Shown piece after piece: positions 12,972 through 42,009 of a DNA stretch of 52,569 nucleotides. The translations under genes were made by a program, and so were the position numbers. Position 1 is the stretch's first letter. Each line of letters begins with the position of its first letter. Source of the stretch: a virus. Its lineage: Duplodnaviria; Caudoviricetes. The notes beneath the pieces are model-generated. The model was given only the letters and a program-made list of their open reading frames with translations, searched no databases and had not been told where the DNA came from. The DNA lies in IMG/VR virus record IMGVR_UViG_3300022918_000016, positions 1-52,569 of that record; one strand, written 5' to 3'.

Positions 12972-12994
12972 AATATAATCACTATATTTACCCC

Positions 12995-13067
12995 GTCATA
13001 ATTTCTATCTAAAACCAGTTTACTGTATAGCTGCTAACATAGCCCTTATACATGAACTGGTTTTTTT
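12995..13067 (+). ncRNA. Candidate antisense sRNA 1 (5' seed GUCAUAAUUUCUAU + long terminator hairpin)
   Basis: TAtaTTTA box 12983-12990; seed complementary to 8314-8327; stem 13011-13064 plus U tract; no ORF. Confidence 0.5.
13011..13067 (+). terminator. Intrinsic terminator ending the rightward early operon
   Basis: AAAACCAGTTTA/TGAACTGGTTTT stem with inner stems, then T7. Confidence 0.8.
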
Positions 13068-22975: not shown

Positions 22976-23227
22976 ATTATTATTCGGTTACTCGGTGTGC
23001 TTACGAATATTTGGAATAACAATAATTTAAATACTAAACGATATCAGCAGTAAAGGAAATTACGAACCAGAGGGTTGAGAGAAAGCCGTTAAGGCAGCAA
23101 AGGAACAGAAATTATTTGATGCCATCGTGGAAACATCCGATGCCATAATTCAGGGATTCAAAAACCACGGCACAGGAAAAACCCGAAACAAAATGACACA
23201 TTTAAAACCTAAAAATAAAAAGAGGAA

Positions 23228-23620
23228 ATGATAGAAATTAAATTTAGAGTATTTGATGTTGATTCATCAGAAATGCTGTTTACAGACTCAGATAACAACT
23301 ACCGCGATTGGTTCTTTGAATTTCAAGGTGGGTTTTTGAAATTATTTACACCTGAAGAAGATGATTTTGCTGAAGAAAGAGAAGCTGTATTCATGCAATA
23401 TACTGGCTTTGAAGATGCAGGAGGTATAGAACTATATGTTGATGATATTATCGAAGAGGATGGGAAGTTCTATATAATTGAATGGGACGAAAGTATGGGT
23501 ATGTTCCAATGTACAAATATTCATTCGTTAGACAACATTGCTTTACATGAGTTTGACGGTGTTAATACGGTATGGCATCAGGGTAATAAACACGAAAACC
23601 CTGAATTACTAACTACCTAA
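23228..23620 (+). CDS. YopX family protein
   Basis: EIKFR...MQYTG..D..G.E.Y..DI...GN.HENPELL. Confidence 0.85.
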   Translation: MIEIKFRVFDVDSSEMLFTDSDNNYRDWFFEFQGGFLKLFTPEEDDFAEEREAVFMQYTGFEDAGGIELYVDDIIEEDGKFYIIEWDESMGMFQCTNIHSLDNIALHEFDGVNTVWHQGNKHENPELLTT

Positions 23621-26336
23621 TCGCATACAAATTCAGCCACCCGCTAACCTCCTGAGCACTTACTGCCGCCCCGCTATCATTAATCCTAATACGGTTATAT
23701 AGCACAGGCGGCAGTATTCGTTTACTGTTATAATCCTTTAGGGTTACGTATCCTAAACCGTCTATACTGTACCTAAATCCATCTTCGTAACCAACTCCGT
23801 TTATTACCCTGGCGTTACCCTCTGCGATAACAACCACCTGAAACTGATTGTACTTTTCCTCAAACATACCTTTCATTACCCCACCAAATTCTTCGGGAGT
23901 TTCTGCGCCGAATATTAAACCCGTCCACTCCATATTTTTAGGATAACCCTGAATAATTAAACCGTCCTGGTCTAATGTTTCAATATAACCTCTACTTAGC
24001 TTCACGGCGGACTGCAAGGCGAAATATTCAGCAATATTCATCTGTAACTCGCACTCAAAGTTAAAACGCGTTAAAATCGCTCCTTTAGGGTAGAATGTTT
24101 CGCCTTCAGTTATTACAGGCTCGCTACCGAATTGCGTAATCGCATTTTTACCATACAGGTATTTAGTATTTTTAATCGGTAAAGGATTATTTAATAATAT
24201 CGTGGCTAACTCTGAATTGTAGTAATTTTCTAAAATACGCTGTTTCGTAAATCGTAAATTACCGAAATTATCGCCGTCATTTAATCCGCTTATTATTGTA
24301 AATCCTTCGTCAGTTCTTAATTTCAATGCTATAGAACTATCTATGATGTACGTGTATCTTGTATTTACATCAAGTAAATCGAAAAATTCACGCCCTGTAA
24401 TATCGCCTATAGGCTGCAGGGTTAAATCCTGCCTTGTAACGCCTGTAACTACGTAATTTCCTGCATTAGTGGTATTCAGTATTTTAAATATACTTCCTAC
24501 GACAATACCCAGCGTTACCCAGCTAAATGAATTATCATTTTTAAGACTTACAATCGGTATCGCGCCTGCCCTGGCAACGCTATGTATTAACTGTGATGTT
24601 TCGCTGCGTTCGCGTGTACCTGAAAACTGTGTAACATCTAATATCGCTATTTTATCATCATCCTGTGTGGCGGTATCATCAGTAGTTTCATTAGCTTTAT
24701 TCAGCATGTCCTGAATATAGAACGGATCGCGGATAAAACCTATGGTTATATCACGGGTATCAGCAACCATATCGTTAGGGATATAGTTTTCGCTTTCGCC
24801 ATGTACAATATCCAACGTGTTACCTGTAGTTGATTCTTTTTGGGAGGCGTAATTCGTGAACGAAATATTTACGGCGTTGCAGGTGGTGCGCTCATTTATT
24901 AATAAGCGCCATGTATCGTACTGCCTTACCGGTAACTCCGGAGTGTGGACGGTATATGTACCCATTCTAACGTTCCTGTAAAAATCCTCCCGTAACCCGA
25001 AAAATACAGTACCGTTATTTATCTGATAATCCCCGTTCAGCTCAGGTCGTATCTGTTTGTCTAAAATATCTTTCATAGATACATAGAAAGGCCTATCCAA
25101 ACCACGCATCAACTGCGCGTTGGTTATAAACTGGTCGTAAAACTCGCCGCCAAACTCAAAACGGGGCGCGCTAACCGGTAAACCTGAATTAGACAGCGTA
25201 ACATATTTTATAGCGTCTATGTAACGCACTGCGTCGATTATGCTGTTATACGCTACCTCGCTACCTTTAATCGTGAATTTTGACGGGTAAAATGTGTTTT
25301 TAGAAACGGCTATATCTGTACCTGCTGCGTGTATAAATACGAAGTAGAGGCATTCTCCCCTGTTTAAATCAGGTAACTGAATATCTGCTATAGTGCCGTT
25401 GTACTCATACGTTCTGCGGCTCGTATTAAGCACGCCTGTATCATATACAGTTATTCCGTTAGCGATATTAGCAGCTTTAAAATCATCGAAGCTTTCGCCG
25501 TAGACACCTTTAAATATTCTGCCGCGTATCTGCATGTTCGTAGCAGGCGGCGATTCGTTAGTCCACTCTGATTTAAGGTGTAGCTGCAAAGTCGCGGTTA
25601 AGCCGGTAAGATTTGAATCTGCCCTAAGAAACACGAAATTTTGCGGCGGTGTATTATAATCAGAGACGCTGTTACCGCCTGCCGTATCGGTTTCATTAAC
25701 CAAATTAGTTAATGAGGCATCAATATCGCCTTTAGTAATATTCTGTATAGCGTTAAAAAAACCTGGCAGTATAGTATTACCCTGTGGTCCTAATGGTTGA
25801 AATCCTAACGGCCTGTAACGCGATATAACTATTTCAGACGGATTAGTCCACTCCGATTCCTTAGTATAGGGCTTAGCAGGCATGTAAATTTTATACTTAG
25901 CGCATGGCGTTATAGGCTCGCCCTTCAAATTTACCGTAGAAAATAAATCTACAGTAGTTTCCATCGTTTCTTTAAACTTCGCTTCGGTGCTATCCTGAAT
26001 AACGGTAAACTCAAAGAATGTTTTACCATCCGTGTCAGGATCTATCATGTTTACGTTACCCAGCACAATAATACCATCGCCATAATCGATGCTTATTTTA
26101 ACTTTAGCCTGATGCGATTGTAATTTCCAGTTCAGTAATAATAAATCAAGGCAGCCATTCATTTTATCCGTTACCCGGTATTTAAAACCTGAATCCCCGG
26201 CTGACTGCGTATCTCTGCCTTTCCTGCCGTCATCCTGTTTTATGGAGAACGAAACAGCATCAGCCCCTTGCGGTTCTTCAATTTCACGCACGCCGTGACC
26301 GGAAGTTATAAAGTCGAGATATATTCTTAATGCCAT
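23613..26336 (-). CDS. Large tail tip / central tail protein
   Basis: 907-aa beta-rich ORF, next structural gene downstream of the tape measure. Confidence 0.7.
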   Translation of the reverse strand: MALRIYLDFITSGHGVREIEEPQGADAVSFSIKQDDGRKGRDTQSAGDSGFKYRVTDKMNGCLDLLLLNWKLQSHQAKVKISIDYGDGIIVLGNVNMIDPDTDGKTFFEFTVIQDSTEAKFKETMETTVDLFSTVNLKGEPITPCAKYKIYMPAKPYTKESEWTNPSEIVISRYRPLGFQPLGPQGNTILPGFFNAIQNITKGDIDASLTNLVNETDTAGGNSVSDYNTPPQNFVFLRADSNLTGLTATLQLHLKSEWTNESPPATNMQIRGRIFKGVYGESFDDFKAANIANGITVYDTGVLNTSRRTYEYNGTIADIQLPDLNRGECLYFVFIHAAGTDIAVSKNTFYPSKFTIKGSEVAYNSIIDAVRYIDAIKYVTLSNSGLPVSAPRFEFGGEFYDQFITNAQLMRGLDRPFYVSMKDILDKQIRPELNGDYQINNGTVFFGLREDFYRNVRMGTYTVHTPELPVRQYDTWRLLINERTTCNAVNISFTNYASQKESTTGNTLDIVHGESENYIPNDMVADTRDITIGFIRDPFYIQDMLNKANETTDDTATQDDDKIAILDVTQFSGTRERSETSQLIHSVARAGAIPIVSLKNDNSFSWVTLGIVVGSIFKILNTTNAGNYVVTGVTRQDLTLQPIGDITGREFFDLLDVNTRYTYIIDSSIALKLRTDEGFTIISGLNDGDNFGNLRFTKQRILENYYNSELATILLNNPLPIKNTKYLYGKNAITQFGSEPVITEGETFYPKGAILTRFNFECELQMNIAEYFALQSAVKLSRGYIETLDQDGLIIQGYPKNMEWTGLIFGAETPEEFGGVMKGMFEEKYNQFQVVVIAEGNARVINGVGYEDGFRYSIDGLGYVTLKDYNSKRILPPVLYNRIRINDSGAAVSAQEVSGWLNLYAIR

Positions 26337-26373
26337 GTGGTAAAAGTAATAAATTTATTTGTATGTTTGTAGT

Positions 26374-26456
26374 CTATTAAATGGGTTTGATAGGTCATAA
26401 TTTTGGTTCGGTTTTTTAGGGATACAGATATTTTTTAAATGTCTGTATTTTTTTTT
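26374..26456 (+). ncRNA. Candidate sRNA 2 (U-rich, contains GUCAUAAUUU)
   Basis: TAtgTTTG 26362-26369; terminator GATACAGATA/TGTCTGTATT plus T run at 26421-26456, with G-U pairs favouring the + strand; only a 12-codon ORF inside. Confidence 0.55.
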
Positions 26457-26491
26457 GTGAAATAATTAAATATAAGTTGTATGTTTGTGGC

Positions 26492-26572
26492 ACGGACAGC
26501 GACCCGTAACTAAAAACTTAACAATAGCCCTTTATTATACTGTCGCTGGTATTTTAGAGGGTTTATTATTTT
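26492..26572 (+). ncRNA. Structured 5' leader, kissing-loop motif copy 1
   Basis: ACGG-[ACAGCGAC]-CCGT hairpin; second hairpin with loop TGTCGCTG; promoter TAtgTTTG 26480-26487. Confidence 0.65.
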
Positions 26573-27199
26573 ATGAAAGTATTAAAAGTGTTGATTGCCT
26601 GTGAAGAAAGCCAGGCTGTTACGAAAGAGTTCAGAGCGTTAGGACATGAAGCTTTTAGCTGCGATATACTACCGTGCAGCGGTGGGCATCCCGAATGGCA
26701 CTTACAACAGGATGTAACCGAATTATTAAAACATGAGTGGGATTTAGTTATTGCATTTCCGCCTTGTACCCATTTAGCATGCTCAGGTTCCAGGCACTTT
26801 GCTAAAAAAATTGAAGACGGTAGGCAACAACAAGGTGTAGACTTTTTTATGTTATTTACTAATATTGATTGTCAGTATGTTGTGATAGAAAACCCTATAG
26901 GAGTTATGAGTTCAAAATACAGAAAACCTAACCAAATAATTCAACCATTTCAATACGGGCATCCATCTAAAAAATCTACTTGCTTATGGTTAAAAAATAC
27001 GCCATTACTCAAACCAACTAATATTGTTGAGCCTGAAATAATAACACTAAGTAATGGTAAGAAATTTTCTGCGGACTACATGAAAGGGGTAAAAAGAAGC
27101 AAAGCCGGTGAAAGTAGCGTAGAAAGGAGTAAGACTTATCCCGGCATCGCAAAAGCTATGGCAGAGCAATGGTCTGAATATATTTTATCTAAAATTTAA
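26573..27199 (+). CDS. DNA cytosine-C5 methyltransferase (short phage type)
   Basis: VLIACEES, AFPPCTHL, IENPIG, TCLWLK, RSKTYPGIA.AMA.QW. Confidence 0.8.
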   Translation: MKVLKVLIACEESQAVTKEFRALGHEAFSCDILPCSGGHPEWHLQQDVTELLKHEWDLVIAFPPCTHLACSGSRHFAKKIEDGRQQQGVDFFMLFTNIDCQYVVIENPIGVMSSKYRKPNQIIQPFQYGHPSKKSTCLWLKNTPLLKPTNIVEPEIITLSNGKKFSADYMKGVKRSKAGESSVERSKTYPGIAKAMAEQWSEYILSKI

Positions 27200-27204
27200 T
27201 TATC

Positions 27205-27459
27205 ATGGAAGATCAATACAAAAAGTACAGAGAATTCACGAAAGAGGAACGTGAATGGGTGAACAGGCTTAAGAAATTAATGAATGAAAAAGCGTGTGGC
27301 AATTTACTTATGTTCATTGGAAGTGGTAGTATGGTTATTTACACTACTCCAGGAGATTATAAAAGCAATCTTTATATGACCAGTGAAGGAGGAGTAGATC
27401 AATACGCTCCAAATTTTAATATAAATACTAAATGCGCCTGCGACGGTGGGGACTGGTAA
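27205..27459 (+). CDS. Hypothetical protein (C-terminal DGGDW)
   Basis: ORF in the operon. Confidence 0.7.
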   Translation: MEDQYKKYREFTKEEREWVNRLKKLMNEKACGNLLMFIGSGSMVIYTTPGDYKSNLYMTSEGGVDQYAPNFNINTKCACDGGDW

Positions 27460-27511
27460 ATAATTTTTCACAAAACCCTACTTCAATTAAAATAAATAAT
27501 TATATTTGCAA

Positions 27512-27605
27512 TGCAGACCGCTACCTGCACAAACTCATAAGTCTTGAATGACTAACAGAGAAACCTCATAGAATGCTGTAGCGGCTTTTATGGGGTTTTC
27601 TTTTT
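27512..27605 (+). ncRNA. Structured 5' leader / attenuator, kissing-loop motif copy 2
   Basis: TGCAG-[ACCGCTAC]-CTGCA hairpin; terminator-like hairpin with GTAGCGG in the loop plus U tract; promoter TAtaTTTG 27501-27508. Confidence 0.7.
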
Positions 27606-27618
27606 ATATTTTATTATT

Positions 27619-27882
27619 ATGAAAACAATATTTAAGCAGAAATTAAAAATAACAGATTTACAGGTTGTTGAATTGCCTGTAAATTCTAAGTTTTTAACTG
27701 TTCAAATGCAGGATGGAATTCCTTGCTTGTGGTATGAGCATAATTCAGATGCCGTAACCGATAAATTCAATATTTATACTTTCGGTACTGGACACGAAAT
27801 AACAACTGATAATAAAATCAGTTATCTGGCTACGTACCAATCAGGAATGTTTGTAGGACACGTTTATTACGCTAAACAATGA
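27619..27882 (+). CDS. Hypothetical phage protein
   Basis: L.VQMQ..IPCLW...GTGH...Y..TYQ...FVGHV pattern. Confidence 0.75.
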   Translation: MKTIFKQKLKITDLQVVELPVNSKFLTVQMQDGIPCLWYEHNSDAVTDKFNIYTFGTGHEITTDNKISYLATYQSGMFVGHVYYAKQ

Positions 27883-28169
27883 TCCACTACAACGACCCAA
27901 AATACCAACAGGAACGCGCTAATGTAAAGCCTCTGAGTGTTGAGGAAATGCAGGAATGCATCGACGGTATTAACCAGCTTATACATAACACCAAGGAATA
28001 TACTCCCTACTCTCAGGATTTATCTATAGTCGCTAATCTACAACGCCTGATATGGGATTACGAAAACCTGCAGCATATGAGGGAGACATACGAAGCCGCA
28101 TTACAGGAAAAATACGATGAAGGATTTGAAAAGGGACACGCTTACGCAGTTAATACTTACATAAAATAA
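27879..28169 (+). CDS. Hypothetical protein
   Basis: ATGA-coupled ORF. Confidence 0.7.
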   Translation: MIHYNDPKYQQERANVKPLSVEEMQECIDGINQLIHNTKEYTPYSQDLSIVANLQRLIWDYENLQHMRETYEAALQEKYDEGFEKGHAYAVNTYIK

Positions 28170-28182
28170 AAACCAAAATATT

Positions 28183-28440
28183 ATGAGCAGACCAAAAGGA
28201 ATTTCCGTTATCGTAAAAACAGAAGCGGAGTACAAAAAAGTACAGGATTTTTTAACTAAAGAGGTACTTTATGTTAATTGGCATCCGGTTATGGAAACTA
28301 CAGAAACAGCTATAGTTTTAAAAGCTGATAAAAACAGCGATTTCTCTACAGGCAGTGTTGGATTGGCTGCATACCAGAGAGAGTGCGGAATAAAAACAAT
28401 GCCGTTTATAGAAAACCTATCATCTTATTTAACGAATTAA
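28183..28440 (+). CDS. Hypothetical protein
   Basis: ORF in the operon. Confidence 0.7.
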   Translation: MSRPKGISVIVKTEAEYKKVQDFLTKEVLYVNWHPVMETTETAIVLKADKNSDFSTGSVGLAAYQRECGIKTMPFIENLSSYLTN

Positions 28441-28444
28441 AATT

Positions 28445-29725
28445 ATGAGAAACATTAAAGATTTAAAACCTAATGAGTGCATTAAAATTAGCACTAAGAA
28501 GGAGGCGCGTAAAATATTTGAATTACTGGGAAGAAATCCGACTTATAATTTAAAATTATATGTGGGTTTTTATGTATTTTTTTCAGAACCTTATCCTGAA
28601 ATGATTTTTAGCGAAAATTACCTCTCTAAAGGCATGGTATCTGTTAACGCCTCCGAATTCCTACCCAAGAAGCACAGCCGTAAAAAACAGCTTTATAACA
28701 GCATAGCGGAAAATACGCATGATATACAGGCGTTGCAATCAGCTTTTAAAATATTGGCTGATAAGGTTGATTCGTTGCCGTCAGTTAACTGGAGCGATAA
28801 CGGTATTGTTAAGGTAAATATTCCAGGGCTTAAACTTGAAGATTCCGTCACTATAAGTCCCGAAGCGTTATTATTCGAGCCTGCCAGTAAACCTGAATCG
28901 TTAACTGAATTGCCTGAAAAGTGGTATATATCCGTAAACGATGGAAACCGTGGTATGATCGAGAAATGGCGCTCAGGACTTGAATCACTCAGAAATAAAA
29001 CCCTTAGTTATGGGCTCTATGTTAATGAATCTGGCAGAGGTTTTTCAGGAATTCCCGAATCTACCGAAATATCGACCGAAGATTTTAAACGCTTAGTGCT
29101 TAAGGAAAATGTTTTGGAGGTGGGTAATTGGTATAAAGATAAATCCCGTGTCGATACAAGTGTTCCTTATAGGTTTATTTTTATAAAAAACATAAATGAA
29201 GGGAGTATTGAAACTTGTGGCTTTGATGGTTTTGGAAATTGGTTTACTGAATCATATTATAATTTAGATGAAGCTGTTTTAGCGACCCAACAAGAAGTTC
29301 AGTCCTCTTTAATAAACGAGGCTGAAAAAAGATACAAATTTGAACAAGAAATCAATGCTATAGATGATACTGAAAATGGCAGTCCAGTAAGAAAACAGCC
29401 CTTAATAGGCAGTGATTATCAATTTAAAGATGGACGATTATTTTCTTTAGGGTTTGGTAAATGGTGTGTTTTTAAAAACGGCATCTGGGCAGAGATAGTT
29501 AAGCCTGTTAAAGAAGAAATTGATTGGAGTAAGCCGGGGCAGTTGTTTGAGGCTGTAAGTGACGGTTGTATAATTTTAAACTCAGGAGAAAGCAACGAAA
29601 GGCAAATGCAAGGAATAATAGTTTATTCAACAACCAACGCGTATCCGTTAGGCTGTTTTAAATGTGGATGGTTAAAAAGCGACTTAAAACTATACACCGG
29701 CGAACCCATAACATTATCAAATTAG
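28445..29725 (+). CDS. Mosaic multi-module hypothetical protein
   Basis: 426-aa ORF with short modules (LPEKWYI, LEVGNWYK, IDWSKPGQL). Confidence 0.75.
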   Translation: MRNIKDLKPNECIKISTKKEARKIFELLGRNPTYNLKLYVGFYVFFSEPYPEMIFSENYLSKGMVSVNASEFLPKKHSRKKQLYNSIAENTHDIQALQSAFKILADKVDSLPSVNWSDNGIVKVNIPGLKLEDSVTISPEALLFEPASKPESLTELPEKWYISVNDGNRGMIEKWRSGLESLRNKTLSYGLYVNESGRGFSGIPESTEISTEDFKRLVLKENVLEVGNWYKDKSRVDTSVPYRFIFIKNINEGSIETCGFDGFGNWFTESYYNLDEAVLATQQEVQSSLINEAEKRYKFEQEINAIDDTENGSPVRKQPLIGSDYQFKDGRLFSLGFGKWCVFKNGIWAEIVKPVKEEIDWSKPGQLFEAVSDGCIILNSGESNERQMQGIIVYSTTNAYPLGCFKCGWLKSDLKLYTGEPITLSN

Positions 29726-29753: not shown

Positions 29754-29785
29754 AAAAGCCAGTAATATTATGTTACTGGCTTTTT
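29754..29785. terminator. Bidirectional terminator
   Basis: AAAAGCCAGTAA-tattatg-TTACTGGCTTTT between convergent genes. Confidence 0.85.
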
Positions 29786-29797
29786 ACTTTTTATAAA

Positions 29798-32700
29798 TTA
29801 TTTAATCTTCCTCCCCTGAAAACTCGCTATCCTATTTTTATATTCGGTGCGTTGCCCTTGTCGTTCGCTGTAAGCTGAATATCCCTTAGCATCAAATGTA
29901 ACACCGTTTACAGGCATCTTAGCTAATGTTTTATCCATGATACGCTCCATATCCGATGCGCTAACCCCTTCGACGCGGTTCATCGCCACCGCAGGCAACC
30001 CGCTATTTAAAATACCGCTGCTGGCAATATCAGGATAAACCTGCGAACCTTTAGGTAAATCAATCAACGTGTTTTTATTTGGCGTTAATGCCATTTTGCC
30101 ATCAGGGTAACGGATAACCTCATGTTTGCCGCCATCCCCTACTAAGGCCTTGCCGCCTGGGTGGTAATCCGTACCTTCAGCATAAGCAGGAACAGGTTTA
30201 GACGCTATCAAACCGATTTGTATAGCTCCTAACGTACCTACTAATATTGATGCCGCTATATTAGGCAATGCTGCTACAACTGCGCTGGCAGTGTTTATAA
30301 TAGCGTTAAACAACGCTGTTTCTTTAGCTGCCTTCGCTTCACGTGTGCGTATTTCACGTTTCTTGTCTGCTAATTGTTTTTCGAGTTCTTCTTCGGCATC
30401 AGCATTGCCACCTGCGAATTTTTTACGTATCTCATATTCACGCTCAATATTCGTTAATTCAGCATCGAAACGCGCCTGGTTATTCTGTTGCATGAAATTA
30501 AATACCTCCTGAAATGTAGACAATGCTGTTGTACCGATAACTTTTAATTTCTCCCCGGCGGTTTGTGCCTGGTCAATCATTTTATCGAATGTACTGCCGG
30601 TCTTACTTTCGATTTCTCCGGCCGAATTTACAAACTGGTATGTTACCTGATCGGTAAATTTAGCCAGCGAGCTTAAACCCATATCGCTAAGGAAACCTGA
30701 TTTAATACTGTTGAATAATTCATCAGTAGCGGTTTTCATTTCATGGCGTAAATCTGCTACTTTTTGTAAACGTTCCGTTTCTGTATCTTTTAACGCCTGC
30801 TCATAACCTATTTGCTCTTTTAATAATTCATTTATCGCCTGGTTGTTTTCGATGTTAGGTTCTTGCAGTTTTATTTCTTCTATTTTAGCTTTAACCCGGT
30901 CTAAATCTATTTGCGTTAATTTATCAGCTCTGTCTAACGCTGCGTTATCCAAATCACGCATTTTATTAGCCAAATCGGTATATTGTTTCTCGGTGGTGCT
31001 ACCTGAAACGCTCGCCAGTAATGAATTACGTTCTGATGTATCGCCTAATCCTAAACGTCCCTGAGTATTACGTGCATTTTGCGCCTGTATATCCAGTAAT
31101 ACGCCTTGCAGCTTACGCGCCGATTCAATCGTTAGTTTCGTTTTGTCATACTCGTATTTTTCATCAATTCGTTTTTTCTTGATGATGTATTTATAGTTTA
31201 TTTCATCTAAATTAGCCTGCGTGGCTTTACCTTCTGAGATAGCTGTTTTATACGTTTCATTCTGGTTCTCGTTTTCAAGCTTATTTAAACGTATTTCTTC
31301 GTCATGCTCTAATTTCAATAACGCTTCTTTCTGGAAATAAAAATTATTTGCCGCAGCTAAACGGGTTTCATAATTTTTCTTGTCGTTATTCATTATTTCT
31401 TCTTCATCGGCAATATGATTTTCAGTATTTTGTCGTTGTAAATTATAGACTTCTTTCAGGTAATCGATGTCGGATTTTTGTTTCTTTGGTTTGCCTACAC
31501 CTGCATAATCCTGCTTAGGTAGCGGTTTCTTTAAAAAGTCGTAAGCTGCCTGTAATTGTCCTAATGAAGTTTTAGTAGTATTCAAACTTGCATCATATAG
31601 AGTATTTAATTTTTTAATCTGGGATTCTATTTCTCCATTTCCAAAACCACCTATATTACCAAATTCCGCCTTAAATGCATCATTCTTTTTTTCTAAAGCA
31701 ACGATCTGTTCGTTTATTGCGTCTCTTTCATCCCTTAACTCTTTTAATCGTTTTGGATTCTCAATTATTCTGTCTTTTGCCGCGTATTCAGCTAAATCTT
31801 GCTGTTGTTTAGTTAATTCTGCAAATCTTTTTTTATCATTAACAGCCTCTTTGTCTTTTACCGTAGCTAATTCTTTTAACTCTTTTAATTCCTGAGCATA
31901 GGCGGAATCTTCTATATACTTCAATTGTTCGTCCCTACGTTGTTCTTCTGATTTAGCTAAATCTGCCATTCCTTCGGCTGCGCCTTTTAAAAACTTAACC
32001 AATCCTGTTAAGCTTTTAGTGATTACGCTATCCCCTTCGCTTATCTGTTTTATTAAATTAGTCCACGCGTTACCTAAACGTGTAGTTTCTGCTGTAAGAT
32101 TCTCTACTCTATTCAGGTTTTCAACGCCGTAGGCTTTTTCTAACTCTGCCGCGAATGCCGGCAATACTTCGGCCGCCAATACTTTACCATCCTTTAGTAG
32201 CTTGTTTAACTGAATTTCTGTAACACCCATAGATTTAGCAAGAATGCCAAATGCACCAGGCAAACGTTCTGCGAGCTGCCCGCGTATCTCCTCTGCTTGT
32301 ACATTGCCTTTAGAAATCATTTGTTGCAAGGCTAAAAATGCACCCTGCTGCTGATCTACAGATAATCCCATTGCCCCGGCTGCTTTAGATACCGATTCAA
32401 ATATCCCGTTTATCTGTTCTGCTGTAATAGCCCCCGATTCAATAGCGTTTTTACTGGCGGCATAAAATCCAGTATAAGAACGCGTCAATCCTTTTATTTC
32501 TATACCGTAAGCCTCGGATATACGTTGCAAAAAAGCCTGTGATTGCCCGAATAATTCATTTGTCCCAAGTACTTGTTTTAACGCAAAATCAAGGGATTGT
32601 AATTCACGGGTAGTGTTGAATATGTCTTTAGATATTGCCGCAAACGCCTGCACGCCACCAACAACACCAAAAGCCATTAAGAGGTCTTTTAAGCCTCTTG

Positions 32701-33322
32701 CCGCCTGCATAGGATAATTACCTACATTACGGTTAAATCTACCCACAGCACGATCCGCTGCAAGCACTCGTGTGTTTAAAGCATCGAACTGGCGTTGTGC
32801 ATTTTGTAATTCACGGTTATACTGACGTTGTGTTTGCTCCCCGGTACGCCCACGCGCTATTAAATTTTGAACTGCACGGGCTGCAATATTTTGTTGTGCA
32901 GATAATCGTTCATAGGAATTAGCGAATGTAGAATTAGCCTGAGCCACCCTTGAAGCGTTAGCTGCCAGTAGACGTGTGTTAGTTATTTCCTCCTGTGTAC
33001 GCTGATTACCTGCAGCACGCGCCTGAGTTTGCCTTGTTATAGCTTGGTTAGTAGTATCTATACCTGCTCTTAATCTGTTTTGCAGGTCAATTTGTTGCTG
33101 TATCAACTGATTGTTAGCCGCTAAAACCGTATTCAACTGCGTAATCAGCCCTCGCGCCTGACTGGGTATCTTAATATTTTTAAAAGCATTATTCAGCGTG
33201 TTAGCCTGCGTAACAGCAAGCTGCAAGTCTTTAGTAAGCTGCGTAACGCCTTTAATGCCTTTATTAAGATCGGTTATCGCGCCTTTTTCTAAAATACCTA
33301 TAAATTCTCCGTTACTTGCCAT
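29798..33322 (-). CDS. Tail tape measure protein
   Basis: 1174 aa, helical, rich in Ala/Gln; QMISKG.VQAEE.RGQLAERLPG tape-measure motif. Confidence 0.92.
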   Translation of the reverse strand: MASNGEFIGILEKGAITDLNKGIKGVTQLTKDLQLAVTQANTLNNAFKNIKIPSQARGLITQLNTVLAANNQLIQQQIDLQNRLRAGIDTTNQAITRQTQARAAGNQRTQEEITNTRLLAANASRVAQANSTFANSYERLSAQQNIAARAVQNLIARGRTGEQTQRQYNRELQNAQRQFDALNTRVLAADRAVGRFNRNVGNYPMQAARGLKDLLMAFGVVGGVQAFAAISKDIFNTTRELQSLDFALKQVLGTNELFGQSQAFLQRISEAYGIEIKGLTRSYTGFYAASKNAIESGAITAEQINGIFESVSKAAGAMGLSVDQQQGAFLALQQMISKGNVQAEEIRGQLAERLPGAFGILAKSMGVTEIQLNKLLKDGKVLAAEVLPAFAAELEKAYGVENLNRVENLTAETTRLGNAWTNLIKQISEGDSVITKSLTGLVKFLKGAAEGMADLAKSEEQRRDEQLKYIEDSAYAQELKELKELATVKDKEAVNDKKRFAELTKQQQDLAEYAAKDRIIENPKRLKELRDERDAINEQIVALEKKNDAFKAEFGNIGGFGNGEIESQIKKLNTLYDASLNTTKTSLGQLQAAYDFLKKPLPKQDYAGVGKPKKQKSDIDYLKEVYNLQRQNTENHIADEEEIMNNDKKNYETRLAAANNFYFQKEALLKLEHDEEIRLNKLENENQNETYKTAISEGKATQANLDEINYKYIIKKKRIDEKYEYDKTKLTIESARKLQGVLLDIQAQNARNTQGRLGLGDTSERNSLLASVSGSTTEKQYTDLANKMRDLDNAALDRADKLTQIDLDRVKAKIEEIKLQEPNIENNQAINELLKEQIGYEQALKDTETERLQKVADLRHEMKTATDELFNSIKSGFLSDMGLSSLAKFTDQVTYQFVNSAGEIESKTGSTFDKMIDQAQTAGEKLKVIGTTALSTFQEVFNFMQQNNQARFDAELTNIEREYEIRKKFAGGNADAEEELEKQLADKKREIRTREAKAAKETALFNAIINTASAVVAALPNIAASILVGTLGAIQIGLIASKPVPAYAEGTDYHPGGKALVGDGGKHEVIRYPDGKMALTPNKNTLIDLPKGSQVYPDIASSGILNSGLPAVAMNRVEGVSASDMERIMDKTLAKMPVNGVTFDAKGYSAYSERQGQRTEYKNRIASFQGRKIK

Positions 33323-41683: not shown

Positions 41684-42009
41684 GGTATTAATTTTAATGC
41701 TTCCAGTAATCCTGCTTCTAAAGCTTGTTCGTAGGTTTCGTATTCTGAACTAAAAGAATATACGTTTCCTTTAAAATAAACTGATGGAAAATATTTCGTA
41801 TCAGGATATTCATCGTAAGTAAACATTGCATTTACCAAGGTTTTATGAACCTCCCTAAGCCATTTTTGTAGTAATGACTGTGTGCAGGTATTGTAAAGTT
41901 TTACCCTCCACTCTACAGCAGAATCCTGTTTAGTATAGCTATTAAAATATTCAAATCCTTTCTCTTTAGCTAACACAGCTGTTTGATAGGTTATTAATTG
42001 TTCTGTCAT
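41680..42009 (-). CDS. Hypothetical phage protein
   Basis: TA.LAKEKGF...TQSLLQKWLRE.H...TYEQALEAGL pattern. Confidence 0.75.
   Translation of the reverse strand: MTEQLITYQTAVLAKEKGFEYFNSYTKQDSAVEWRVKLYNTCTQSLLQKWLREVHKTLVNAMFTYDEYPDTKYFPSVYFKGNVYSFSSEYETYEQALEAGLLEALKLIP

What the first reader, a model, noticed from the sequence alone, without database searches (positions are those of the whole stretch)
26362..26456. Second stand-alone sRNA candidate with the same anti-AUG seed
Seen: a consensus promoter (26362-26369) and a strong + strand terminator (26421-26456) enclose about 80 nt with only a 12-codon ORF. The body GGGTTTGATAGGTCATAATTTTGGTTCGGTTTTTT reads as the reverse complement of a typical Bacteroidota initiation region (AAAAAACCGAACCAAAATT-ATG-ACC-TAT-CAA-ACC). 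It shares GTCATAATTT (26394-26403) with sRNA 1. I found no long perfect target in the phage (partial similarity near 23178-23197 and 28169-28186), so the target may be a host mRNA such as a defence gene. Together the two RNAs suggest a family of phage anti-start-codon sRNAs.
Basis: partly seen in the sequence, partly recalled or inferred. Interest (0 to 1): 0.72.

Follow-up and report, generated by a model that had tools for sequence, protein, structure and literature searches.

The report
Candidate small RNA unit in phage
A Flavobacteria-type phage carries a small promoter-plus-terminator unit that probably makes an 80-base non-coding RNA, but its proposed job of blocking start codons is an untested idea with no identified target.

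Summary
A consensus Bacteroidota -7 box (26362-26369) lies 52 nt upstream of one of the three strongest terminator-like hairpins in the window (26418-26452, plus T9). Neither short ORF between them is conserved.

The unit sits in a divergent intergenic region. On one side is a near-leaderless 907-aa tail-region gene (- strand). On the other is a mosaic accessory island (+ strand) that starts with a DNA methyltransferase.

Five of nine related records with this junction carry the unit, in three body versions. Four have the same promoter joined directly to the island's pseudoknotted leader. The unit is therefore a discrete, dispensable module, and a second promoter (P2, 26480-26487) follows its terminator.

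TCATAATT is kept in all three body versions, and TCATAATTT(T) in two. Its complement, AAATTATGA, matches the phage's consensus start-codon context. The same 9-mer is conserved in the other unit (12996) in two phages.

Against the reading: the seed duplex is weak (-5.6 to -8.3 kcal/mol) and pairing to phage start regions is no better than for shuffled RNAs. No extended target was found in the phage, in 185,579 species genomes or in 401 Flavobacteriaceae genomes. No RNA data exist.

Verdict: a plausible new phage sRNA. The anti-start-codon mechanism is only partly supported.

The parts
26341..26348 (-). -7-like box (TACTTTTA) of the 907-aa gene, 4 nt before its ATG at 26336. This predicts a leaderless or near-leaderless mRNA, back-to-back with P1.
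   Evidence: Read. The same box-to-ATG spacing of 4 nt is seen in L009, L010, L007 (TATATTTG) and L018 (TAATTTTA), and 5 nt in L004, L005 and L017. The box position of -12 to -5 is taken from PMC9723704.
26359..26370 (+). Promoter P1: TTGTATGTTTGT, with the -7 box at 26362-26369. Predicted start of transcription is 26374.
   Evidence: It is 33 of 33 identical in G001. In L017 it is identical and is the only island promoter.
26374..26393 (+). Weak 5' hairpin: 8 bp with a UGGG loop.
   Evidence: dG -4.4 to -4.8, z -1.85. G001 and G002 have a different 7-bp stem around the same UGGG loop. The - strand does not fold at all.
26394..26417 (+). Predicted unpaired stretch. TCATAATTTT at 26395-26404 is the conserved 'anti-start' motif. 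GGTTTTTTAG at 26410-26419 (running 2 nt past this stretch) is also semi-conserved.
   Evidence: Unpaired probabilities. Conservation. The complement is AAATTATGA, found at 5 of 92 called starts.
26418..26456 (+). Intrinsic terminator: a 16-bp hairpin plus T9. The end of the T run plus G (26454-26457) forms the TTTG -33 element of P2.
   Evidence: Identical in L003, L019 and L020 and in L011. On the - strand no T run follows the hairpin.
26477..26488 (+). Promoter P2, a second copy of TTGTATGTTTGT, with the -7 box at 26480-26487. Predicted start of transcription is 26492.
   Evidence: In L011 a different consensus box (TATATTTG) takes its place.
26492..26572 (+). Structured (pseudoknot-like) leader of the accessory island, ending at the methyltransferase ATG (26573).
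   Evidence: The same two-stem crossing architecture occurs in two sequence types across relatives.
26381..26419 (+). 12-codon ORF, not conserved.
   Evidence: In G001 and G002 the corresponding ATG is followed by GGT TAG.
26327..26398 (-). 23-codon ORF, not conserved.
   Evidence: It is 6 codons long in G001 and G002. No consensus - strand box lies upstream. The 907-aa protein's N-terminus aligns with its homologues from residue 1.

Best explanation
The region holds a discrete, dispensable module. It consists of the ancestral early promoter of an accessory-gene island (P1), a 47-nt variable body (65-72 nt in relatives) and a strong intrinsic terminator. A second promoter (P2) follows immediately and takes over expression of the island.

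P1 should therefore make a non-coding RNA of about 80 nt on the + strand (26374 to about 26452-26456). This RNA has a weak 5' hairpin, an unpaired middle and a terminator hairpin.

The most likely function is a small regulatory RNA that acts through its conserved unpaired UCAUAAUUU(U). That motif is the exact complement of the phage's consensus start-codon context (AAAUUAUGA), so it would pair with start regions of that type.

Shown: the sequence elements, their conservation, the absence of conserved coding, and the strand asymmetry.
Inferred: that P1 fires, that the terminator works, and every part of the trans-acting mechanism and its targets.
For: - Architecture: a consensus -7 box, then after 52 nt a 16-bp hairpin plus T9 that is terminator-like only on the + strand.
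- P1 is probably active. In L017, L009, L010 and L007 the homologous promoter is the only one in front of the island leader.
- Module behaviour. The unit is present in 5 of 9 records with this junction: the window, L002, L004, L005 and L011. What follows the terminator is exchanged: leader type A or B, and in L011 a different P2.
- Uneven conservation between the window and G001. P1 is 33 of 33 identical and the terminator-to-leader stretch is 96.9% identical over 160 nt. The flanking genes are about 68-86% identical and the body is scrambled.
- No coding. Both short ORFs collapse in relatives.
- G-U pairs make the hairpins + strand specific, and the - strand body has 0 kcal/mol of structure.
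- TCATAATT survives in all three body versions and TCATAATTT(T) in two. The 9-mer is predicted unpaired in the window and G001 versions.
- The 9-mer also sits in unit 1 (12996), conserved in G001 at 41773.
- In the window's 9132 non-coding 9-mers, CAT-containing complements of at least 3 start regions occur only at 12995-6, 26394-6 and 29764.
- Precedent: the Bacteroides sRNA GibS pairs an unpaired conserved seed with start-codon regions (PMC7366714, passages seen).
Against: - No RNA evidence of any kind.
- The body fold is not better than shuffles (z -0.73, +0.25, -0.36).
- The body alignment is ambiguous, so the hairpin 'covariation' rests on two independent sequences.
- The seed duplex is weak: -5.6 kcal/mol for the 9-mer and -8.3 for the 10-mer.
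- Pairing with 93 phage start regions does not differ from 200 shuffled RNAs (best energy p = 0.33, mean p = 0.12).
- No long complementary site in G001 either; the longest is 12 nt.
- The 22-mer gave 0 hits in 185,579 species genomes. The 20-mer gave 1 hit, in a Bacillota genome, about what chance predicts.
- The 24-mer with up to 3 mismatches gave 4 matches against 16 for the reversed control in 401 Flavobacteriaceae genomes.
- The unit is absent from 4 of 9 related records.
- Five of the window's 8 copies of TCATAATTT, and most of G001's 9, are the reverse strand of real or probable gene starts. The motif could therefore be a relic of one.
Confidence: 0.5

Rival explanations
1. By-product of modular recombination, with no trans-acting function. 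Island modules are swapped at the shared promoter sequence. A module that brought its own promoter plus an upstream terminator left P1 stranded, so P1 now makes a dead-end transcript. Any role would be in cis. The terminator could insulate P2 and its leader. P1 could also be kept because it overlaps, and may compete with, the back-to-back promoter of the 907-aa gene.
For: - Homology breakpoints fall right after P2.
- P1 and P2 share a 12-nt core.
- L017, almost identical to L004 at the start of the 907-aa gene, lacks the unit.
- The body is the least conserved part and is not significantly structured.
- No target was found.
- The - strand box of the 907-aa gene lies 13 nt from P1's box.
Against: - In L011 the unit is followed by a different P2, so it is not a simple duplication of P1.
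- A neutral spacer would not be expected to keep TCATAATT, ATGGGTT and GGTTTTTAG through a rearranged body.
- It would also not be expected to share its 9-mer with a second, independently conserved unit.
Confidence: 0.28
2. Regulated attenuator. P1 transcripts stop at the terminator unless a phage or host factor lets RNA polymerase read through. This resembles the short terminated transcript made upstream of the lambda late genes (recalled knowledge).
For: A promoter followed closely by a strong terminator upstream of an operon. The island leader downstream is itself a conserved structured RNA.
Against: - A full consensus promoter (P2) sits directly after the terminator in all 5 records, so read-through is not needed for island expression.
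- The fold shows no alternative antiterminator pairing; MFE and centroid agree.
- No antiterminator gene was looked for or found.
Confidence: 0.1
3. A small protein is the product: the - strand 23-aa ORF (26398-26327) with its textbook start context, or the + strand 12-aa ORF.
For: AAATTATGA is a genuine start context: 5 of its 8 occurrences in the window are called gene starts. The - strand body is completely unstructured, as start regions are.
Against: - The - strand ORF is 23 codons in the window but 6 in G001 and G002. The + strand ORF is 12 codons against 2.
- No TAnnTTTG box lies on the - strand between 26337 and 26572. The nearest look-alike (TATATTTA) decays to TATATTTC and TATACTTC in relatives.
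- The promoter of the 907-aa gene lies downstream of this ATG.
Confidence: 0.04

Closest known systems
Trans-acting intergenic sRNAs of Bacteroidota, e.g. GibS of Bacteroides thetaiotaomicron (PMC7366714, passages read)
   Same: Own sigma-A type promoter, intrinsic terminator, AT-rich. A conserved single-stranded stretch proposed to pair across the start codon of mRNAs in a phylum without Shine-Dalgarno sequences.
   Different: GibS is chromosomal, experimentally detected, and uses an extended 30-50 nt seed with validated targets. Here the RNA is phage-borne, unobserved, has only 8-10 conserved nt and has no target. No Rfam family matches.
Phage antisense RNAs that mask a start region: P22 sar (68/69 nt), P1/P7 c4, lambda OOP (77 nt) (review PMC12197685, passages and table read)
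   Same: Short phage-encoded RNAs with their own promoter and terminator that block translation of a phage gene.
   Different: Those RNAs are complementary over long stretches to a specific phage mRNA. Here no gene lies opposite, and the best phage match is 15 of 17 in an A-rich stretch that is not conserved in G001.
Short terminated transcript upstream of lambdoid late genes (PR'-tR' 6S RNA / StxS; recalled, not read here)
   Same: A constitutive promoter followed within about 100-200 nt by a strong terminator, in front of an operon.
   Different: Here a second consensus promoter follows the terminator, so antitermination is not required. No Q-like factor was examined.

Membership tests
Stand-alone base-pairing sRNA (generic class) | Own promoter | tested here: met
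   Sequence level only. Perfect TAnnTTTG at 26362-26369. It is identical to the sole island promoter of L017.
Stand-alone base-pairing sRNA (generic class) | Intrinsic terminator on the same strand | tested here: met
   16-bp hairpin plus T9, dG -13.1, + strand only. Identical in 4 relatives.
Stand-alone base-pairing sRNA (generic class) | No conserved reading frame | tested here: met
   Both ORFs collapse in G001 and G002.
Stand-alone base-pairing sRNA (generic class) | Transcript of the predicted size exists | not testable with these tools
   Needs strand-specific RNA data from an infected host or a matching sample.
Stand-alone base-pairing sRNA (generic class) | Conserved, accessible seed | tested here: inconclusive
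   TCATAATT is kept in 3 of 3 body versions. It is predicted unpaired in the window and G001 versions and partly paired in the G002 MFE. Only three versions exist.
Stand-alone base-pairing sRNA (generic class) | Target complementarity beyond chance | tested here: not met
Cis-antisense phage RNA (OOP, sar, c4 type) | Long complementarity to a phage mRNA start region, or an overlapping opposite-strand gene | tested here: not met
   No - strand gene or promoter over 26374-26456. The longest perfect complement elsewhere is 11 nt.
Any Rfam family, tRNA or tmRNA | Match to a curated model | tested here: not met
   0 matches at gathering score in the whole window. Only chance-level hits at E up to 10. 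ARAGORN found 0 genes.
Antitermination-controlled leader transcript (lambda PR'-tR' type) | The terminator is the only barrier between the promoter and the operon | tested here: not met
   P2 follows the terminator in all 5 records.
Small-protein gene | ORF conserved in length and sequence among relatives | tested here: not met
   23 against 6 codons (- strand) and 12 against 2 codons (+ strand).

The most novel reading that the evidence does not exclude
The two units (12991-13066 and 26374-26456) belong to a family of phage RNAs that carry the complement of the consensus, Shine-Dalgarno-less start context of their Bacteroidota system (AAAUUAUGA). They would act as general 'anti-initiation-region' RNAs, masking or titrating a whole class of start sites on phage and/or host mRNAs rather than one specific target.
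Probability: 0.12. Interest if true: 0.75.

Novelty: new member of a known kind. Interest (0 to 1): 0.4.

Why it matters
Phage-encoded small RNAs are known almost only from phages of Proteobacteria. A 2025 review of them does not contain the word stem 'Bacteroid' at all.

Bacteroidota start translation without Shine-Dalgarno pairing. An RNA complementary to their Kozak-like start context would therefore be a new way for a phage to touch translation.

If real, this module, together with the neighbouring conserved pseudoknot leader and the near-leaderless late promoter, gives a compact and testable picture of how these phages organise a swappable accessory-gene island. As it stands it is a reasonable prediction, not a discovery.

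Tried and rejected
- RNA evidence: no RNA holder listed. Three DNA runs from leaf-litter metagenomes were listed, one of which may be the source of the window.
- Relatives of a virus record cannot be drawn.
- Prophage or host search with the 907-aa family in species genomes found nothing.
- Cultured-phage DNA search matched only the methyltransferase gene.
- Copies of the module elsewhere: none in the window or G001. The terminator and P1 strings occur only in the same three viral records.
- A 16-mer of the seed complement hit at least 120 genomes of all phyla, which is chance.
- Reading TCATAATTT as a promoter element was rejected, because its distance from the -7 box differs: 5 nt in unit 1, 25 nt in the window's unit 2 and 41 nt in G001's.
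- Reading it as a DNA operator palindrome was rejected, because the arm mismatches are all G-T, which pair only as + strand RNA. This is a post hoc argument.
- An N-terminal extension of the 907-aa protein was rejected, because its homologues align from residue 1.
- The similarity of unit 1's loop to the P2 leader, seen by eye, did not pass a motif search that allowed no indel.

Full report
**Setting**

The window is a single IMG/VR virus record of 52,569 bp, estimated 96% complete. The finding lies in a 236-bp divergent intergenic region (26337-26572).

On the left is a 907-aa gene on the - strand (23613-26336, P0001), which has no Pfam or PHROG hit. On the right is a + strand block of small genes (26573-29725). 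That block starts with a DNA methyltransferase (phrog_757, E 7.5e-68) and includes a DUF7352 protein. It ends at a bidirectional terminator next to the tape-measure gene (29798-33322, - strand). The + strand block is thus an accessory island wedged into the tail-gene region.

Start regions in the phage show no Shine-Dalgarno signal: G is 3-12% at positions -10 to -4 and at -2 and -1, and rises only at -3 (21%). They are A/T-rich, with consensus A(-5)..A(-3)T(-2)t(-1)ATGAaA.

All 48 cultured-phage records with a homologue of P0001 infect Flavobacteriaceae: Flavobacterium 46 and Olleya 2, at no more than 24% identity. A Bacteroidota host is therefore a fair inference. The host species is unknown.

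**The observation**

TATGTTTG at 26362-26369 is a perfect sigma-A -7 box.

In Flavobacterium psychrophilum this box occupies -12 to -5 (PMC9723704, passages seen). That places the start of transcription at 26374.

From there the RNA folds into three parts (dG -17.9, z -4.09):
- an 8-bp hairpin with a UGGG loop (26374-26393);
- a 24-nt unpaired stretch (26394-26417);
- a 16-bp hairpin (26418-26452) followed by T9.

The z-score is carried by the terminator. The body alone is unremarkable (z -0.73), and the 5' hairpin alone has z -1.85, with 12 of 200 shuffles as good.

In my scan for hairpins with a 7-of-8 T tail, this one (dG -13.1) is one of three at or below -10 kcal/mol among 13 sites on both strands. 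The tool's own scan did not list it because it requires three G-C pairs. On the - strand no T run follows the hairpin, so it can only terminate + strand transcription.

**What relatives show**

Searching with P0001 and an alignment of its homologues gave nine distinct records that contain this junction, counting the window.

- Five carry the unit: the window, L002 (96% protein identity), L004 = G001 and L005 = G002 (59%), and L011 (63%).
- Four have the homologous promoter joined directly to a structured leader with no unit: L017 (59%), L007, and L009 and L010 (37-38%).
- Three further records (L006, L008, L018) have another arrangement upstream of the gene.

L017 is nearly identical to L004 at the start of the 907-aa gene yet lacks the unit. 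Gain or loss is therefore recent, and the unit is dispensable.

What follows the terminator is exchanged between records. There are two unrelated leader types. In L011 a different consensus -7 box (TATATTTG) stands where P2 is. Homology between the window and L002 ends just after P2.

The unit therefore behaves as a module of its own rather than as a simple duplication of P1. In all five records the end of the terminator's T run plus G supplies the TTTG -33 element of the next promoter.

**Conservation inside the unit**

G001 is a complete 54,750-bp relative with terminal repeats. It is collinear with the window at about 68-86% identity over most long aligned blocks.

Against that background conservation is uneven. 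P1 is 33 of 33 identical, and the stretch from the terminator through P2 and the leader is 96.9% identical over 160 nt. The body is so different that MAFFT and my by-eye alignment disagree. Body length is 47 nt in the window, 65 nt in G001 and 72 nt in G002 and L011.

Three short pieces survive: ATGGGTT, TCATAATT(TT) and GGTTTTTAG.

Both body types place UGGG in the loop of a 7-8 bp hairpin whose stem sequences differ. Their non-Watson-Crick positions are all G-U, so they pair only in the + strand RNA. The - strand folds to 0 kcal/mol.

This is suggestive of an RNA-level constraint. It rests, however, on two independent sequences and an ambiguous alignment.

**Coding is unlikely**

- The + strand ORF is 12 codons in the window and 2 in G001 and G002.
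- The - strand ORF is 23 codons in the window and 6 in G001 and G002.
- No TAnnTTTG box lies on the - strand in the region. The nearest look-alike decays in relatives.
- The 907-aa protein aligns with its homologues from residue 1, so the - strand ORF is not an extension of it.

**The 'anti-AUG seed'**

AAATTATGA matches the phage's consensus start context. It occurs at 5 of 92 called starts in the window and 8 times in all. In G001 it occurs at 3 of 89 called starts and 9 times in all.

Listing every TCATAATTT in both phages shows that most copies are the reverse strand of real or probable gene starts. In the window the exceptions are this unit, the other unit at 12996 and one site inside the tape-measure gene.

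Among the window's 9132 non-coding 9-mers, CAT-containing complements of three or more start regions occur at only three places:
- 12995-6;
- 26394-6;
- the loop of the terminator at 29764 (- strand).

Unit 1 is conserved in G001, with a perfect -7 box, the same TCATAATTT 5 nt after the box, and compensatory changes in its terminator stem.

**The limits of the seed idea**

- The 9-mer and 10-mer duplexes are worth only -5.6 and -8.3 kcal/mol.
- The RNA body pairs with 93 phage start regions no better than 200 shuffled versions do: best energy -24.5 against -23.5 plus or minus 2.3 (p = 0.33), and mean p = 0.12.
- The longest perfect complement is 11 nt in the window and 12 nt in G001.
- The site at 23178-23197 is the best partial match but lies within the background tail, and no G001 alignment spans it.
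- For host targets, the 22-mer complement has no match in 185,579 species genomes. The 20-mer has one, in a Bacillota genome, about what chance predicts.
- The 24-mer with up to 3 mismatches matched 4 times in 401 genomes of the Flavobacterium antarcticum family, against 16 for the reversed control.
- The host may not be in these samples, and imperfect pairing was not modelled with accessibility.

**Judgement**

The safest reading is that P1 makes a short, terminated, non-coding RNA and that P2 drives the island.

Whether that RNA acts in trans is open. I give 0.5 to a functional small RNA, with the start-context motif as its likely business end. I give 0.28 to a dead-end product of modular recombination with at most a cis role, 0.1 to a regulated attenuator and 0.04 to a small protein.

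Known analogues are Bacteroides GibS and the classical phage antisense RNAs sar, c4 and OOP (PMC7366714 and PMC12197685, passages only). The unit fails the defining test of the antisense RNAs, which is long complementarity to a specific mRNA. It matches no Rfam family.

I saw only the search listing of PMC6847099. Statements about the lambda PR'-tR' transcript are recalled, not read. Supplementary files were not consulted, and none bears on the claims made here.

Noticed in passing
window 26492-26572 (+); also L004, L017, L007, L002, L005, L009, L010: The leader that follows the island promoter has a conserved crossing two-stem (pseudoknot-like) architecture in two unrelated sequence types, ending in a T-rich stretch just before the first ATG. 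In type B, 98.5% of cells pair and 2 pairs show compensatory changes. Type A has the same layout by eye, but I did not count its stem 1, and RNAalifold recovered only the long-range stem in both types. No Rfam match. It could be a cis-acting regulator of the island and may be more interesting than the unit itself.
   Followed up: partly
window 26336-26348 (-); L007, L009, L010, L018, L004, L005, L017: The 907-aa gene has a -7-type box ending 4 nt (5 nt in three relatives) before its ATG. This predicts a leaderless or 1-nt-leader mRNA. It is back-to-back with, and 13 nt from, P1's box, so the two promoters probably exclude each other.
   Followed up: partly
window 12983-13066 (+); G001 41750-41835: 'sRNA 1' is a second promoter-to-terminator unit. 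It is conserved in G001 with a perfect -7 box, the same TCATAATTT 5 nt downstream, and compensatory changes in its terminator stem. Its large loop resembles part of the P2 leader by eye, though a motif search without indels did not link them.
   Followed up: partly
window 26488 onward against L002, L005, L011, L017: Homology between relatives breaks right after the island promoter. The island content then differs (methyltransferase in the window and L004, other genes elsewhere). The promoter appears to act as a recombination joint for swapping accessory modules.
   Followed up: partly
L011 1-200: In this 3010-bp metagenome contig the first 16 codons and the promoter of the 907-aa homologue are missing, and its coding sequence abuts the P1 box directly. 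This is either a deletion variant or an assembly chimera.
   Followed up: no
window 29754-29784: The bidirectional terminator between the island and the tape-measure gene carries CATAATATT in its loop on the - strand. This is the complement of AATATTATG, which occurs at 6 of 92 start regions.
   Followed up: no
window 23178-23197 (+): An A-rich stretch upstream of the YopX-family gene (23228-23620) is 15 of 17 complementary to the unpaired part of the RNA. It is the best match in the phage, but it lies within the background tail and no G001 alignment spans it.
   Followed up: yes
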